The notes: generated by a model not told the origin, from the sequence alone. 64,000 nt of DNA from Eledone cirrhosa (GCA_964016885.1 OZ024740.1:76136001-76200000), one strand, 5' to 3'; positions 25,440 through 56,996 are shown, counted from the first letter of the stretch. Numbers and translations: made by a program.

Positions 25440-25510
25440 GTCACAAGTGATACTCAACTTGACAGATGAAAGAAAATATGATAATCGAATATCTCCACAC
25501 TTTGATCTTG
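25440..25510 (+). CDS. Cys-loop ligand-gated ion channel (GlyR/GABA-A/GluCl-like) exon: N-terminal helix, SQVILNLTDERKYDNRISPHFDL
   Basis: tttccag acceptor and gtaagt donor; 71 bp. YDNRISP matches the YDxRxxP motif after the N-terminal helix of Cys-loop receptors. The final G joins AG of the next exon to give GAG (E) in frame. Confidence 0.85.
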
Positions 25511-25879
25511 GTAAGTACTCTCCATTTTAATACACATTCAACAGATTTCGTTTTAATTATGGACAAGGTTGAGAGCAGAGCTCATTCACAACTCCCCATG
25601 AAACAGGACAGTAAAGTTCATTCTGTTCCTGCACCTGAATGAGTGTACGTGGTGGGTAAATTTACCCTTGAACTCATTGGCTGAAAGCCGTCGAGTGGTG
25701 TAGCATCATCCGGGGAAACGCCTTCTCCATTCTGTCCGCCGGGGCTGTGGGGAGGCCAGCATGTGGGACCCCATTTGCTCAACATACGGAGAGATGGAGG
25801 CAGTGACAGTGGGCATTCGGCTCTTCCACGTTCGGACCATATCCTTGTGGTTGTGTTCATTAAGCAGTTAATGCCCCGC

Positions 25880-26110
25880 AGATCGATGTCCATTCTCTAT
25901 GATCAAAGTAACCTTGTAGATTACGGCCTTTAAGAGGAGGGATCCACCTAGAGAACAGTTGGCAGGGTTTCGGAAGTTGCATGTTGATGCAGGTGTTGGG
26001 GATGTATGTGTCCATGTATTTTTCTCTTATAATGTGCGGTATCTGAAGAGATACTATCTAAAGAGGAATAGCTAATCTTAATATTGTGTAAGTTAAAGAT
26101 CTTGAGGTAC
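25880..26110 (-). mobile_element. Penelope-like fragment (Zn-linker before GIY-YIG)
   Basis: Minus frame STCNFRNPANCSLGGSLLLKAVIYKVTL resembles PLE CNCRxxxxCPLxGxCLxxxVIYKA. Confidence 0.55.
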
Positions 26111-26458
26111 TTATGATTACACCCCGTCCTCTCTCTAGCATATATATGTGTAGGTATGTATATTCCCTCTGATAGTTTGTATAAATATTTTACATAGATC
26201 TATAGAATATGCATACCAACACTAACACATATATATCCTAGAAACGATCGTAAAATGATGAATTTTTTTAATATAAGGAACTGTTTCTTTGTTTATTCAT
26301 TATTTTATTAATTTATATATATATATATATATATATATATATATACATACATACATATATAGTCCATCAACCAATGACCTCCACCCATCCAAACCCCCAC
26401 CCTCTCCTACCACCAGAAAAGAAAAGATATAAATAACACGACATTTACTTGGACAGCC

Positions 26459-26509
26459 AGCTTCCTGATGATTTCTCATGAATGAAACAGTTCTAGTCCT
26501 GTAGAAGCT
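26459..26509 (+). ncRNA. Type I hammerhead ribozyme motif
   Basis: AGCTTC-CTGATGA-tttc(tcat)gaat-GAAA-CAG(ttctagtc)CTG-TA-GAAGCT: all three stems pair and the core is intact. Confidence 0.8.
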
Positions 26510-26587
26510 TTTCTATATTAATATATATATATATATATTATTCAAAATATTAACAAATGAAGATATTCACATAATCAAAATATATGC

Positions 26588-26648
26588 TTTATTATATATA
26601 TTTCGAAGGTACTGTGTTTTTTTTTCCAGTACGTCCTCGTCAGATAAA
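26588..26648 (-). ncRNA. Type I hammerhead ribozyme motif
   Basis: TTTAT-CTGACGA-ggacGTACTG...CAGTACcttc-GAAA-tatata-TA-ATAAA. Confidence 0.7.
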
Positions 26649-27684
26649 ATATATGATTTGATATATGACATACCTCTACGGTCTTGATATTTCAATTCCA
26701 GTATTGGCAGTGATTTATTTCATCAAATCTCAACATTTATATACCACAAATAATAATATGATAAACTTAAAGAAGAAAAGGACGTGGAGCGAATTAGAGA
26801 TATAAGAGAGGGTGTAAAGAGGAGGAGATGCAAGAAAAAAAGTAAAAGAAAGAGAAAAAAAATACGTATATAAATATTTAAATGAATATATAGATGGGTG
26901 AAATAGATGAAGAAATATATATAAAAAAGAAGAAAAAGAAGAACGAAAAAAAGAAATAACGACAAAAGAAATTATGGGGGTGGGGGTGGGGGTGGGTGGG
27001 GGGTGGAGGGAATAAGTAGAAAAAACCGTTGTTTTCAAATATTAGGTCAATTGAAGCGACCAATCAATTACCATAGATCATTGAATATCTCTAGTATTTG
27101 GTTATGGTTAAGCTAATTATACTAATATAATATATCAAAATTAATCAATATACATTACTTTTCATAGCCGTCACATATTTATTTAATTAAACATTTATAT
27201 AATTTTATTTAACTCATTATAGATTTTAATTTCTGGTTTAGGTAATATATTCCATAAGTATTTTGTTACAACTTTTAAAAAATTATCTTTAAAGCATAAT
27301 TAAATAATTATTCAACCTGTATTAAAATATATATTAAAATACATGCATATATCACCTTTATAAAATAGTTTCAATATTTAATTATCATATAATTACAGGA
27401 TTAAATTTTAGTTATATTTACTCTGAAAAGTTTTATTTCGTTAATTTATATTTACTTCAGTAATTATGAATTATTACAGTTTAAAGAAATTCTTACATTA
27501 TTCAACTATATAATTTATGTCAATTTATGTACACACACACACACACACACACACACACACACACACACACACACACACACACACACACATATATATATAT
27601 ATATATATATATATATATATATATATATATATATATATAGTGACGAAACATAAGTCAATTGCATGAACTCATAATCCTTTATTT

Positions 27685-27740
27685 ACTGCTATATATATTT
27701 CGATGATAGCCATTGAATGGCTATGACCTCATCAGGCAGT
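27685..27740 (-). ncRNA. Type I hammerhead ribozyme motif at the 3' end of a decayed PLE (about 27640-28040)
   Basis: ACTGC-CTGATGA-ggtcATAGCCATT(c)AATGGCTATcatc-GAAA-tatata-TA-GCAGT. The upstream minus frame contains PDGLN, typical of a PLE GIY-YIG C-terminus. Confidence 0.8.
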
Positions 27741-54718: not shown

Positions 54719-54812
54719 TTCCTATGGAAAAGGTAAACAGAAATAACAACCCAATCGGTACAGTATATGGAAGGGATATATTAGGTTAACACTTGATATA
54801 GCAGGAAGAGCG

Positions 54813-54848
54813 TCTTAACGTTTCGCACGCTATTCCTTCATCAGAAGA
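54813..54848 (-). ncRNA. Minimal hammerhead-like motif
   Basis: TCTT-CTGATGA-aggaatagcgtgc-GAAA-CG-TT-AAGA; stem II weak. Confidence 0.5.
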
Positions 54849-55021
54849 AAGAATGAGAAATAAGATAGATTGAGGGGACGGGCGGGATGGAATTGGAAAA
54901 CATGTCTTTAGTTAAACATAACAGGTCCATTCATGTTGACATTCGATCGAAGACTGCGTTAATATACGCGTGTATATATATATATATATATATATATATA
55001 TATATATATATATATACTTCT

Positions 55022-55219
55022 AACGAAGGAGTTGTGGTAAGGAACCAGATGGACCATAACGCACTAGAGTACTCAATCCTTAGGGTAGTAGAGTGGGTAA
55101 TAGGAAAATGTATGACCCCCGACGGCAGAGCTCAAGCCATTTCGACGGCTATTTCTGGACGTCCAGAAATAGCCGTCGAAACGGCTTGAGCTCTGCCGTC
55201 GGGGTCATACATTTTCCTA
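55022..55219 (-). mobile_element. Short PLE-end-like repeat with fold-back, copy 3
   Basis: Body as at 21687; near-perfect palindrome 55101-55219 centred on GGACGTCC. Confidence 0.75.
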
Positions 55220-55311
55220 AATATACATCTATACAGAAAGCCGCGTATGTATATATGTATCACATCATCCTGGAAAACTCTAGCCAGAATCTCAAAAACT
55301 CTGTCATCCTG

Positions 55312-56105
55312 TCAAGTGTGATGATTTAGGCTCTGGTGTTGGTATAGAGCAGTGATATCAGGTCCACAATAATCTTGTAAGATATTCATCAGGCAGTCTC
55401 GGTTCATAGGATCAAAGGCCTTCCTGAAGCCAATGAAAACCATGACAGCAGGAAGGCTCTTTGCTCTAGCCCCCTCTAGAATTCTCCTCAGCACCAAGAT
55501 GTGACAGGTGATTGATTTTTCCTTCTCTGAAGCCGTTCTGGTTGTCCCTGAGTTTCTCCACCTCGGACTGAATCCGGTTAAGAATCTTCCTGTTGAGGGT
55601 CTTTGCCACAAGTGACGTCAGTGAGATGCCCCTGTACATGTTGGTGCCAGAGAGATCTCCTTTCTTTACTACTGGGATCGTGTTACTGACTCTATACTTA
55701 TTCGGGGCTACTCCCTTCTCCAGTGCCTGGTTACAGAACTCAAAGATGATATCATCAAAATCACATCTCTTCCTCACCTCTGATGCCGTTCCATCTTTTC
55801 CGTGGCCCTTTCCCTTCTAGATCTTCTTTTTGGCTCTCTGAAGTTCCTCTCTTGCGAAGGGTCTGTCTCAATATCCAGTTCACCGAACAGCTGTCTGATC
55901 TACCCGATGTTCTGGAATGTGGAACTTGGCCTTCCTAGTAGGATCTTAAAATGGTCCAGCACTTCCTCTTCCAATCCTTGGGCCCTGTTTCCCGGACCTG
56001 ACTCGAACTCTGGGTCTTCATCCCTGTGATTTCGTTGATCACCGTTCAGCTCTCTTTACTCTTCCACCTGTCCACCGCTCTCTGTACACTCCTGATCATC
56101 TCCAT
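55312..56105 (-). mobile_element. RTE-like LINE RT fragment
   Basis: IPVVKKGDLS..MYRGISLTS..AKTLNRKILNRI...LRDNQNGFREG, HILVLRRILEG...FIGFRKAFD; frameshifted. Confidence 0.85.
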
Positions 56106-56913
56106 CAGTACCTCTTCTTTAGTCTCGGTGTAAGCGTAGAATCAATGAATGAATTTGTATCAACAGTGAAAAGCAGAGAAAACAAAAGTGGCGAATAGTT
56201 TTTGAATAGGTTAACGTTTGTCTGCAATGGAAAAATGTGTGATGAACGTATCAGACTTGGATCCTTCATCTGGTAAGAAATGAGAGGGGAGAACATTTAG
56301 GAAACGCAGAGACAGAAGATATTAGATTTTGGAAAATATGCAAGTAGCAGTCATCAGGAAGAGTGTTGTCATGGGTGTATAGTTGAGAATGGAGTATAAT
56401 CTTGCATGTGGGTATGTATGTAGTAGATGTGGCAGAGCGTCCGGATTTATTAATGGCGCTGCTGCTGCTGGTGTGTGTGTGTGTGTGTGTGTGTGTGTGT
56501 GTGTGTGTGTGTGTGTGTGTGTGTGTGTGTGTGTGTGTGTGTGTGTGTGTGTGTATGTGTGTGTGTGTGTGTGTGTGTGTGTGTGTGTGGTGTGTGTGTG
56601 ATGTTGAAGTGCATCGTCTGAGAGTATTCCTGTCTTGAAGTTTTGTGTCAATCAAACTGTGTGCGTATATGTCTGTATGCCATGTATGTGTGTTTCTGTA
56701 CTATGTAAATGGCGTTTAGAGAGTGTGCGAGTCGGTTTATGTGTTGTCTGTGTGTGTCAGTCCTAGCATATAAATATTCATACAGAATGGGTACTATTAA
56801 GATTTCATAGTTACTTTATGTCATAACCATGATGATTATCATTATCCCAATCAAGCTACTAATATATCCTATGATTGTATTAAAATACCAAATTGATGAC
56901 TCTTTTTTCACAG

Positions 56914-56996
56914 GCTAACTATTACAGGGGCTTGTCCTATGCATCTGCAGAACTTCCCTCTTGACACGCAAGTTTGTTCCATTGTTATAAAAAGCT
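56914..56996 (+). CDS. Cys-loop channel exon: the Cys-loop itself, (R)LTITGACPMHLQNFPLDTQVCSIVIKS
   Basis: tttttcacag acceptor and gtaagt donor; 83 bp as in GlyR/GABA-A genes. C-x13-C with FPxD; phase matches the upstream exon (AG+G = R). Too short for the ORF track. Confidence 0.96.

What the first reader, a model, noticed from the sequence alone, without database searches (positions are those of the whole stretch)
25440..56996. Cys-loop channel with a charge-reversed agonist pocket: possible receptor for an unusual ligand
Seen: four exons splice to SQVILNLTDERKYDNRISPHFDL-EIPTEVRVHLYIYSIDSISESAM-DYTMTFILTQIWNDPRL...PDLYFANEK...NKMVHLYKNGTIKYRVR-LTITGACPMHLQNFPLDTQVCSIVIKS, with GlyR/GABA-A-type exon sizes and phases. 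Established: in GlyR alpha1, loop D F63/R65 and loop E S129 hold the agonist carboxylate and loop B E157 coordinates the amine. My manual alignment gives F63>I, R65>T, F99>Y, R119>H, L127>K, S129>R and E157>K. The loop D arginine and loop B acid are both lost and three basic residues appear. Inference: it is unlikely to be a canonical glycine/GABA receptor. It may sense an anionic or amine-free ligand, use the loop E Arg as a relocated carboxylate contact, or be a non-binding subunit. Cephalopods are known to have repurposed nAChR-branch channels as chemotactile receptors; this would be a candidate from the other branch.
Basis: partly seen in the sequence, partly recalled or inferred. Interest (0 to 1): 0.75.

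Follow-up and report, generated by a model that had tools for sequence, protein, structure and literature searches.

The report
Octopus chloride channel, rewired binding pocket
This intact octopus-type gene encodes a relative of the glycine receptor in which the charged residues of the neurotransmitter pocket have moved to new places, the same way in three cephalopod paralogues, so the channel likely does not use glycine or GABA and is predicted to be switched by its own internal salt bridges (for example by pH) or by an unusual acidic ligand.

Summary
The four exons and all seven substitutions are real. Three more exons lie beyond the window and complete a stop-free 387-aa Cys-loop subunit with an anion-type PAR pore motif. 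It has close orthologues in Octopus, Argonauta and cuttlefish, annotated only as 'glycine receptor alpha-like'. So the pocket is rearranged, not simply basic. Lys127 varies among paralogues and His119 is common to molluscs. Thr65, Arg129, Lys157, Glu203 and Glu204 are fixed in three coleoid paralogues, inside a mollusc-wide orphan clade (Arg/Lys129, no Arg65) that is sister to the group holding Aplysia GluClAc1. By residue counting, Lys157 with Glu203/204 is the charge-swapped form of the fly Alka pH switch (Glu182-Lys229), and Arg129 matches Arg122 of the pH-gated mite channel SsCl. Best guess (0.35): self-paired pocket, pH-tuned or tonic chloride channel. Close rival (0.30): acidic-ligand receptor using relocated Arg129 and Lys157. 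Neither is tested, and no interface model could be run. New variant of a known family; interest 0.45.

The parts
25440..25510 (+). Coding exon for helix alpha1 (first exon found; the signal-peptide exon upstream was not found)
   Evidence: AG/GTAAGT ends, 71 nt; matches orthologues P0001-P0005
43485..43552 (+). Exon for beta1 / loop G (Tyr44, Tyr46)
   Evidence: 68 nt, AG/GTAAGT; 91-100% identical to orthologues
47734..47960 (+). Exon for loops D, A, E: Ile63 (47752), Thr65 (47758), Tyr99 (47863), Ala101, Met117, His119 (47923), Lys127 (47947), Arg129 (47953)
   Evidence: 227 nt, AG/GTGTGT; Pfam Neur_chan_LBD E 2e-14; codon positions
56914..56996 (+). Exon for the Cys-loop and start of loop B, with Lys157 (56990-56992)
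   Evidence: 83 nt, AG/GTAAGT
56997..64000 (+). Intron that runs out of the window. The gene continues in three exons beyond it: G000:C1:76207275-76207406 (rest of loop B, loop F, loop C to Glu203), 76217609-76218000 (Glu204-Phe207, M1-M3 with Pro-Ala-Arg, Leu9', Arg15', Ala19') and 76225542-76225733 (M4, TAA stop)
   Evidence: tblastn to orthologues; ends read; PF02932 match E 7.7e-23; joined frame has no internal stop over 387 aa; residues

Best explanation
This is an intact GlyR/GluCl-branch Cys-loop subunit with an anion-type pore motif, and its agonist pocket is predicted to be filled by its own paired charges, so that it would work as a pH-tuned or tonically open chloride channel rather than as a glycine or GABA receptor. 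Shown: the gene, the fold, the PAR motif, and the residues Thr65, Arg129 (complementary face), Lys157, Glu203, Glu204 (principal face), fixed in three coleoid paralogues. Inferred: Lys157 puts an ammonium group where the agonist amine normally sits among Tyr99/Phe159/Tyr202/Phe207; Glu203/Glu204 put a carboxylate where the agonist carboxylate sits; Glu204 pairs with Arg129 of the next subunit and/or with Lys157. Inferred: protonation of these pairs would clamp or release loop C and so open or shut the pore. Direction (acid or alkaline) is not predicted.
For: (1) Basic 157 and Glu203+Glu204 occur together in 38 of 351 scored proteins, all of the coleoid subclade; 1 has basic 157 alone, 3 have the two Glu alone, 309 neither (one evolutionary event, so not independent counts). 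(2) 13 of 15 pocket positions are invariant across 19 sequences of the three paralogues against 84 of 177 other ectodomain positions (Fisher p 0.003, sequences not independent); the two exceptions are Tyr/Phe202 and position 127. (3) Fly Alka, an alkaline-gated anion channel without a classical ligand, has a loop C Lys229-Glu182 salt bridge (3.6 A at pH 7.4, 5.0 A at pH 10) and K229A impairs gating (bioRxiv 10.1101/2025.10.29.685377). Alka Gln164 = GlyR alpha2 Pro173 = alpha1 Pro139, so Glu182 = position 157; Pro276 and Leu287 are -2' and 9', so Lys229 = position 203 or 204, given near-invariant spacings. This protein has the swapped pair. (4) Mite SsCl, also alkaline-gated, forms an Arg122 (beta6, complementary)-Glu198 (beta10, principal) pair only in non-closed states, and R122A raises pH50 (PMC13065796). 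Its 9' Leu254 and the stated equivalences of His208 and Thr144 to GlyR His and Thr give an offset of 7, so Arg122 = position 129. (5) A lophotrochozoan anion-branch channel gated by protons exists (Alvinella Alpo7, PMC4801368). (6) Lys157 stays Lys in 21 of 21 Logan-assembled proteins, so majority A-to-I editing back to Glu is not seen.
Against: No structure of the interface and no current were obtained. The Alka and SsCl mappings come from residue numbers in papers, not from an alignment of their sequences. SsCl Glu198 maps to 205 (Asn here), one residue off; E198A had no effect (p 0.73) and R122A was marginal (p 0.046). SsCl's main sensor pair His206/Glu146 maps to Phe213/Ser153 here, and Alka's K+ site Asp47/Gln139 to Ser/Pro. 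SsCl is not a close relative (24% identity, Z 20.9, rmsd 4.2 A over 319 residues) and Alka is an arthropod lineage, so any likeness would be convergent. Alka was gated at pH 10-13, not a plausible range for a marine animal unless the lysine pKa is shifted. A fixed aromatic box and fixed loop C fit a true ligand site equally well. A Lys at the Thr204 position supports glutamate binding in Nematostella GluCls (PMC13335744), so charges in these places can also serve ligands.
Confidence: 0.35

Rival explanations
1. Receptor for an acidic or amine-free ligand (aspartate, glutamate, a sulfonate or small carboxylate). Arg129 would replace Arg65 as the carboxylate anchor (an Arg/hydroxyl swap between neighbouring strands: R65T with S129R), and Lys157 would be a further independent solution for a second carboxylate.
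For: A second-carboxylate arginine arose at least three times in GluCls (PMC4338433) and a lysine solution in Nematostella. The Arg/Lys129 clade is sister to the molluscan group holding GluClAc1 (SH-aLRT 94.4 for all 74 sequences of the two groups). GluClAc1 lacks Arg65 and Glu157 and has Lys127. Both faces of the pocket are fixed in coleoids. Three bivalve members keep the molluscan GluCl Arg101.
Against: Glu204 replaces the Thr204 that binds the agonist carboxylate and would repel one. The window protein has Ala101, not the Arg needed in molluscan GluCls. GluClAc1 responded only after long transfection and glutamate would not dock stably. R98S (position 65) abolished glutamate responses in GluClAc2.
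Confidence: 0.3
2. Accessory subunit of a heteromer that supplies only the complementary face (Met117, His119, Arg129) or no binding face, with a conventional Glu157 subunit as principal face.
For: In the 25 members of the Arg/Lys129 clade outside the Lys157 subclade, Met117, His119 and Arg/Lys129 are invariant (25 of 25) while loop C varies from 10 to 16 residues and has Tyr/Phe202 in only 2 of 25. GABA-A beta subunits lack the loop D Arg and serve one face only (PMC4006026). Arg19' is lost (Ala). The genome holds subunits with Arg65.
Against: In the coleoid subclade loop C is fixed at 12 residues with Tyr/Phe-Glu-Glu-Asn in 10 of 10, across paralogues only 51-64% identical; that is hard to explain for an unused principal face.
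Confidence: 0.2
3. Still gated by glycine, GABA, beta-alanine or taurine, with the zwitterion bound in reversed orientation (carboxylate to Lys157, amine to Glu203/Glu204) or through backbone contacts.
For: Closest solved structures are GlyRs (TM-score 0.77 of query, 0.91 of target, 41% identity); aromatic residues 99, 159, 202, 207 are kept; annelid GlyR-like channels respond to glycine, GABA and taurine.
Against: All four polar contacts are changed and Phe63 is Ile; the amino-acid-agonist motif is described as highly conserved in binding subunits, with mutation strongly lowering potency.
Confidence: 0.1
4. Pseudogene, assembly error or misalignment.
For: Signal-peptide exon not found; database models of two Octopus orthologues lack an exon.
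Against: 387 codons without a stop over seven exons with canonical ends; 96% identity to O. vulgaris over 266 aa and 78-80% to cuttlefish and unnamed Logan proteins; all six junction motifs are joined in 3 of 6 Logan group-A proteins, the other 3 being partial; invariant register.
Confidence: 0.03

Closest known systems
Vertebrate glycine receptor alpha subunits (e.g. alpha3, PDB 5TIN/9BP0)
   Same: Best sequence and fold match (E 1.7e-98; TM-score up to 0.77/0.91); two ectodomain disulfides; Pro-Ala-Arg filter; aromatic 99, 159, 202, 207.
   Different: Phe63>Ile, Arg65>Thr, Ser129>Arg, Glu157>Lys, Gly160>Ala/Val, Asn203>Glu, Thr204>Glu, Ser15'>Arg, Arg19'>Ala; not orthologous, lies in a molluscan radiation.
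Aplysia GluClAc1 / GluClAc2 (molluscan glutamate-gated chloride channels; PMC4178172)
   Same: Nearest functionally tested relatives in my tree (GluClAc1 = P0418, in the sister group). GluClAc1 also lacks Arg65 and Glu157 and has His119, Lys127, Glu203.
   Different: GluClAc1 carries the loop A Arg101, Ser129 and Thr204; this protein has Ala101, Arg129, Glu204, Lys157. Not orthologous.
Drosophila Alka / CG12344 (alkaline-gated anion channel; bioRxiv 10.1101/2025.10.29.685377, PMC13103399)
   Same: Anion-branch pLGIC with a salt bridge between loop B position 157 and loop C position 203/204 (mapping by residue counting).
   Different: Charges are swapped (Alka Glu/Lys, here Lys/Glu); Alka K+ site residues absent; arthropod lineage; gating here untested.
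Sarcoptes SsCl (pH-gated chloride channel, PDB 9RGM; PMC13065796)
   Same: Arg at position 129 on beta6 pairing with a loop C/beta10 Glu of the neighbour in non-closed states (mapping by counting).
   Different: Its Glu maps to 205, not 203/204; its His206/Glu146 sensor is absent here; 24% identity.
Cephalopod chemotactile receptors (CRT1, CRB1)
   Same: Cephalopod Cys-loop channels with a remodelled orthosteric site.
   Different: nAChR branch, 15-17% identity to the model; this gene is multi-exon and highly conserved; no expression evidence for a sensory role.

Membership tests
Cys-loop (pentameric ligand-gated ion channel) superfamily | Neur_chan_LBD plus Neur_chan_memb domains, 13-residue Cys-loop, four TM helices | tested here: met
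   Pfam above cut-off for both domains on orthologue P0002 and LBD on the window exon; Cys138-Cys152 spacing; model pLDDT 87 with four C-terminal helices
Anion-selective GlyR/GluCl-type branch | -2' Pro, -1' Ala, 0' Arg and loop C disulfide | tested here: met
   Pro250 Ala251 Arg252; Cys198-Cys209 spacing 11
Anion-selective GlyR/GluCl-type branch | Measured chloride selectivity | not testable with these tools
   Needs reversal-potential recording
Glycine receptor alpha | Amino-acid-agonist motif: loop D Arg65, loop E Ser129, loop C Thr204 | tested here: not met
   Thr65, Arg129, Glu204; motif defined in PMC4338433
Glycine receptor alpha | Loop B Glu157 and aromatic box | tested here: not met
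   Lys157, Ile63; Tyr99, Phe159, Tyr202, Phe207 kept
Glycine receptor alpha | Orthology to vertebrate GlyR alpha | tested here: not met
   Falls in a 35-sequence molluscan clade, SH-aLRT 99.4, apart from GlyRs
Molluscan GluCl (GluClAc1/2 type) | Loop A Arg (position 101) for the alpha-carboxylate | tested here: not met
   Ala101 in 10 of 10 coleoid members; role from PMC4178172
Molluscan GluCl (GluClAc1/2 type) | Glutamate-evoked current | not testable with these tools
   The O. vulgaris screen included L-glutamate, but its gene list is in a supplement I could not see
pH-gated anion pLGICs (Alka, SsCl type; a functional class, not a clade) | Charged pair between loop B 157 and loop C 203/204 (Alka) | tested here: inconclusive
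   Opposite charges at both positions but swapped; mapping by residue counting; geometry not modelled
pH-gated anion pLGICs (Alka, SsCl type; a functional class, not a clade) | beta6 Arg129 with loop C Glu of neighbour (SsCl) | tested here: inconclusive
   Arg129 present; Glu at 203/204 rather than 205
pH-gated anion pLGICs (Alka, SsCl type; a functional class, not a clade) | SsCl His206/Glu146 sensor; Alka K+ site | tested here: not met
   Phe213/Ser153 and Ser47/Pro139
pH-gated anion pLGICs (Alka, SsCl type; a functional class, not a clade) | Current gated by pH | not testable with these tools
   Needs electrophysiology
Cephalopod chemotactile receptors | nAChR-branch origin | tested here: not met
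   15-17% identity to CRB1/CRT1 against 34-42% to GABA-A, GlyR and GluCl chains
Cephalopod chemotactile receptors | Expression in sucker sensory epithelium | not testable with these tools

The most novel reading that the evidence does not exclude
Coleoid cephalopods have a three-gene family of chloride channels whose neurotransmitter pocket is occupied by the protein's own Lys157, Glu203/204 and Arg129, a charge-swapped mirror of the fly Alka switch that arose independently, making them ligand-free pH or ion sensors on the inhibitory branch.
Probability: 0.27. Interest if true: 0.75.

Novelty: new variant of a known kind. Interest (0 to 1): 0.45.

Why it matters
Databases call these genes 'glycine receptor alpha-like', which would mislead cell-atlas and behaviour studies. 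If the pocket is self-paired, cephalopods would have a conserved pH- or ion-tuned chloride conductance, a concrete candidate for the unidentified chloride channels invoked in CO2/acidification effects on squid behaviour (PMC12901041, introduction passages), and a second, mirror-image origin of the Alka switch. If it binds an acidic ligand, it would be another independent invention of carboxylate recognition in this family. Either is testable with one oocyte series. Orphan invertebrate Cys-loop subunits with altered pockets are common, which caps the surprise.

Tried and rejected
RNA evidence for this organism: no RNA holder listed; the three runs laid cover introns and behave as genomic DNA of one sample, so they say nothing on splicing. 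Signal-peptide exon: tblastn of seven homologue N-termini over 85 kb upstream and a 38-aa search of the genome (best E 1.24) found nothing; left open. Direct alignment to SsCl: its chain is in the structure library but did not come into the displayed sequence alignments, and the paper's figure supplement is a picture PDF. ESM Atlas gave no result. Earlier scan findings: 0 by sequence, 0 by words, 8 shown of 162 by place, none on this gene family. Isethionate as ligand: a literature search gave only listings, none on such a receptor; kept only as a compound to screen. 'Net basic pocket' rejected because of Glu203/Glu204 and variable 127. His119 as a special feature rejected: His in 26 of 29 molluscan subunits of the conventional Arg65/Ser129 group too. 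RNA editing of Lys157 (AAA) to Glu as the main form not seen in 21 of 21 Logan proteins (contigs drop minor variants). Support values printed were shifted by re-rooting; I re-read them by bipartition, where a fuller IQ-TREE run timed out without supports but held the same clades. No paper describing this clade's ligand turned up in searches; subscription papers are not covered. PMC4031562 (Alvinella pHCl) was not held.
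Full report
1. Observation. The 12 quoted motifs lie on the + strand where stated. The four exons are 25440-25510, 43485-43552, 47734-47960 and 56914-56996, all AG/GT, in frame. 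A vertebrate GlyR finds exons 4 and 5 at 68.9 and 40.8 bits; 20 shuffled windows reach at most 26.2. HMMER alignments to GlyR alpha3 reproduce the seven substitutions, and the spacings that fix the register are invariant or nearly so in about 260 sequences. Exons 3 and 4 are matched without differences by contigs of three runs of one sample, which may be the assembly's own source.

2. The whole gene. The window is G000:C1:76136001-76200000 of a 3.0-Gb genome. With 140 kb fetched downstream and 60 kb upstream, orthologues locate three more exons at extended window coordinates 71275-71406, 81609-82000 and 89542-89733. Seven exons give 387 residues without a stop. The signal-peptide exon was not found. 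Exon 4 is 96% identical to an Octopus vulgaris protein, 95% to Argonauta hians, 84% to a cuttlefish, so the organism is likely an octopod. The orthologue P0002 folds at pLDDT 87 and matches GlyRs best. M2 has Pro-Ala-Arg at -2' to 0', Leu9', Arg15' and Ala19': predicted chloride-selective. Three of six unnamed Logan proteins of the same group contain all six junction motifs and the other three are partial; a 419-aa product from a 1383-base contig must come from spliced RNA, so the orthologues are spliced as modelled (inference).

3. The pocket. In GlyR numbering: Tyr44, Ile63, Thr65, Met117, His119, Lys127, Arg129 on the complementary face; Tyr99, Ala101, Lys157, Phe159, Ala160, Tyr161, Tyr202, Glu203, Glu204, Asn205, Phe207 on the principal face. 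Lys127 is typical of this paralogue only (K 6, V 10, Q 5 of 21). His119 is general in molluscs. So the acid has moved from loop B to loop C, the Arg from beta2 to beta6, and a new Lys sits at the amine site.

4. Family. A tree of 87 sequences (87 of 87 kept, 279 columns, IQ-TREE fast; supports re-read) puts the gene in a coleoid subclade of three paralogues (SH-aLRT 100): A (this gene), B (G000:C4:375.69 Mb) and C (C4:374.59 Mb). That subclade lies in a 35-sequence clade of cephalopods, gastropods and bivalves (99.4), all with Arg/Lys129 and none with Arg65, sister to 39 subunits, molluscan where named, that include Aplysia GluClAc1 (91.4; both together 94.4). No named non-molluscan sequence fell in the clade among those sampled. 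Deep nodes are not reliable. In the 25 other members loop C drifts (10-16 residues) and 157 is Gln in 24; in the 10 members of the coleoid subclade loop C is fixed as Tyr/Phe-Glu-Glu-Asn and 157 is Lys. Across 19 coleoid sequences 13 of 15 pocket positions are invariant against 84 of 177 others. Among 351 of 422 proteins that could be scored, basic 157 with Glu203+Glu204 occurs 38 times, all in this subclade. This is one event, not 38.

5. How it may work. The canonical amino-acid motif (loop D Arg, loop E Ser, loop C Thr, aromatics; PMC4338433, first part of text read; PMC4006026 passages; PMC6465966 passages) is gone, so ordinary glycine or GABA gating is unlikely. A Lys at 157 also disfavours amine transmitters (inference). 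Two pH-gated anion channels offer a precedent. In Alka a loop C Lys229-Glu182 bridge is the pH switch (bioRxiv 10.1101/2025.10.29.685377, parts 1-2 of 3 read); residue equivalences in PMC13103399 (passages and one section) place these at 203/204 and 157, the swapped form of this protein's pair. In SsCl an Arg122-Glu198 intersubunit pair forms in non-closed states (PMC13065796, section 10 read); counting places Arg122 at 129 and Glu198 at 205. I therefore favour a self-paired pocket tuned by pH or tonically open (0.35). The weak points are real: mappings rest on counting, SsCl E198A did nothing, the main SsCl sensor and the Alka K+ site are absent, and no interface model was obtained. Nearly as likely (0.30) is an acidic ligand held by Arg129 and Lys157: GluCls have re-invented the second carboxylate contact several times, and GluClAc1 lacks Arg65 and Glu157 yet gave weak glutamate responses (PMC4178172, sections 21, 37 part 1, 40 and passages). 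An accessory role (0.20) fits the other clade members better than the coleoid subclade.

6. What is known. The orthologues are annotated 'glycine receptor subunit alpha-like' or 'glutamate-gated chloride channel-like'. Courtney et al. (bioRxiv 10.1101/2025.04.02.646353; sections 6, 22, parts of 10 and 38 and passages read) screened 41 O. vulgaris Cys-loop channels with 18 ligands (17 are named in the Methods; aspartate, taurine and pH steps are not among them). The text I read reports only DopC and AChRB channels; whether this gene was tested is in a supplement I could not see, and it bears directly on novelty. Six searches found no paper on this clade's ligand or pocket. MolluscaGenes (PMC13174522, passages) covers the nAChR branch. 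The chemotactile comparison is only an analogy: those receptors are 15-17% identical, and an anion-branch chemosensor is already known (Alka).

7. Verdict. Observation confirmed; interpretation partly supported. A real, conserved, orphan chloride-channel-type subunit with a rearranged pocket, not found described in my searches, shared by three coleoid paralogues. It has the fold and pore motif of a GlyR-type anion channel but fails membership of GlyR alpha and molluscan GluCl. New variant of a known kind; interest 0.45; 0.75 if the mirror-image pH switch (probability about 0.27) is true.

Noticed in passing
window 30407-33140: Inside the long intron after the first found exon: reverse-transcriptase (RVT_1, zf-RVT) frames of a LINE-like element, with 584-nt arms 98% complementary at 30407-30990 and 32557-33140; could form a long hairpin in the pre-mRNA.
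   Followed up: no
window 21000-21299 and 60994-61293: Two identical 300-nt copies 39,994 nt apart, each overlapping a GIY-YIG frame on the minus strand (Penelope-like by inference), suggesting recent insertions.
   Followed up: no
window 3-1258: PIF1 helicase fragments in two frames, likely a Helitron remnant.
   Followed up: no
G000:C11:23.62-23.92 Mb: Tandem row of 18 Cys-loop transmembrane matches in single open frames of 383-431 aa (ectodomain matches); likely the intronless chemotactile receptor array (inference).
   Followed up: no
G000:C1:76207277-76207279: Loop B position 160 is Ala (GCT) here but Val in 20 of 20 Logan proteins and 9 of 10 tree members of the subclade; Gly in GlyR. 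Not checked against reads.
   Followed up: partly
window 56990-56992: Lys157 is codon AAA, which A-to-I editing could turn into Glu, the canonical acid; not seen in 21 of 21 Logan proteins, but minor editing cannot be seen in contigs.
   Followed up: partly
window 47961-47966; proteins P0003, P0124, P0001: Exon 4 ends on a weak donor (GTGTGT). The O. bimaculoides RefSeq model lacks the Cys-loop exon, an older model reads through aberrantly there, and one O. vulgaris model lacks M1-M3: model errors or exon skipping.
   Followed up: partly
M2 of the whole Arg/Lys129 clade: A basic residue at 15' goes with Arg/Lys129 in 25 of 28 such sequences and in 0 of 231 others; with Val288 in the coleoid members this likely blocks the ivermectin site (site position recalled).
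   Followed up: partly
P0329 (Babylonia areolata): A gastropod member has Arg157 independently, with a longer, Asp-rich loop C; a possible second origin of a basic 157 with loop C acids.
   Followed up: no
L078 (G000:C1:355.40 Mb) and L008 (C3:232.00 Mb): Two further divergent anion-branch genes with non-canonical features (Ala in place of the -2' Pro in L078; Tyr65 in L008).
   Followed up: no
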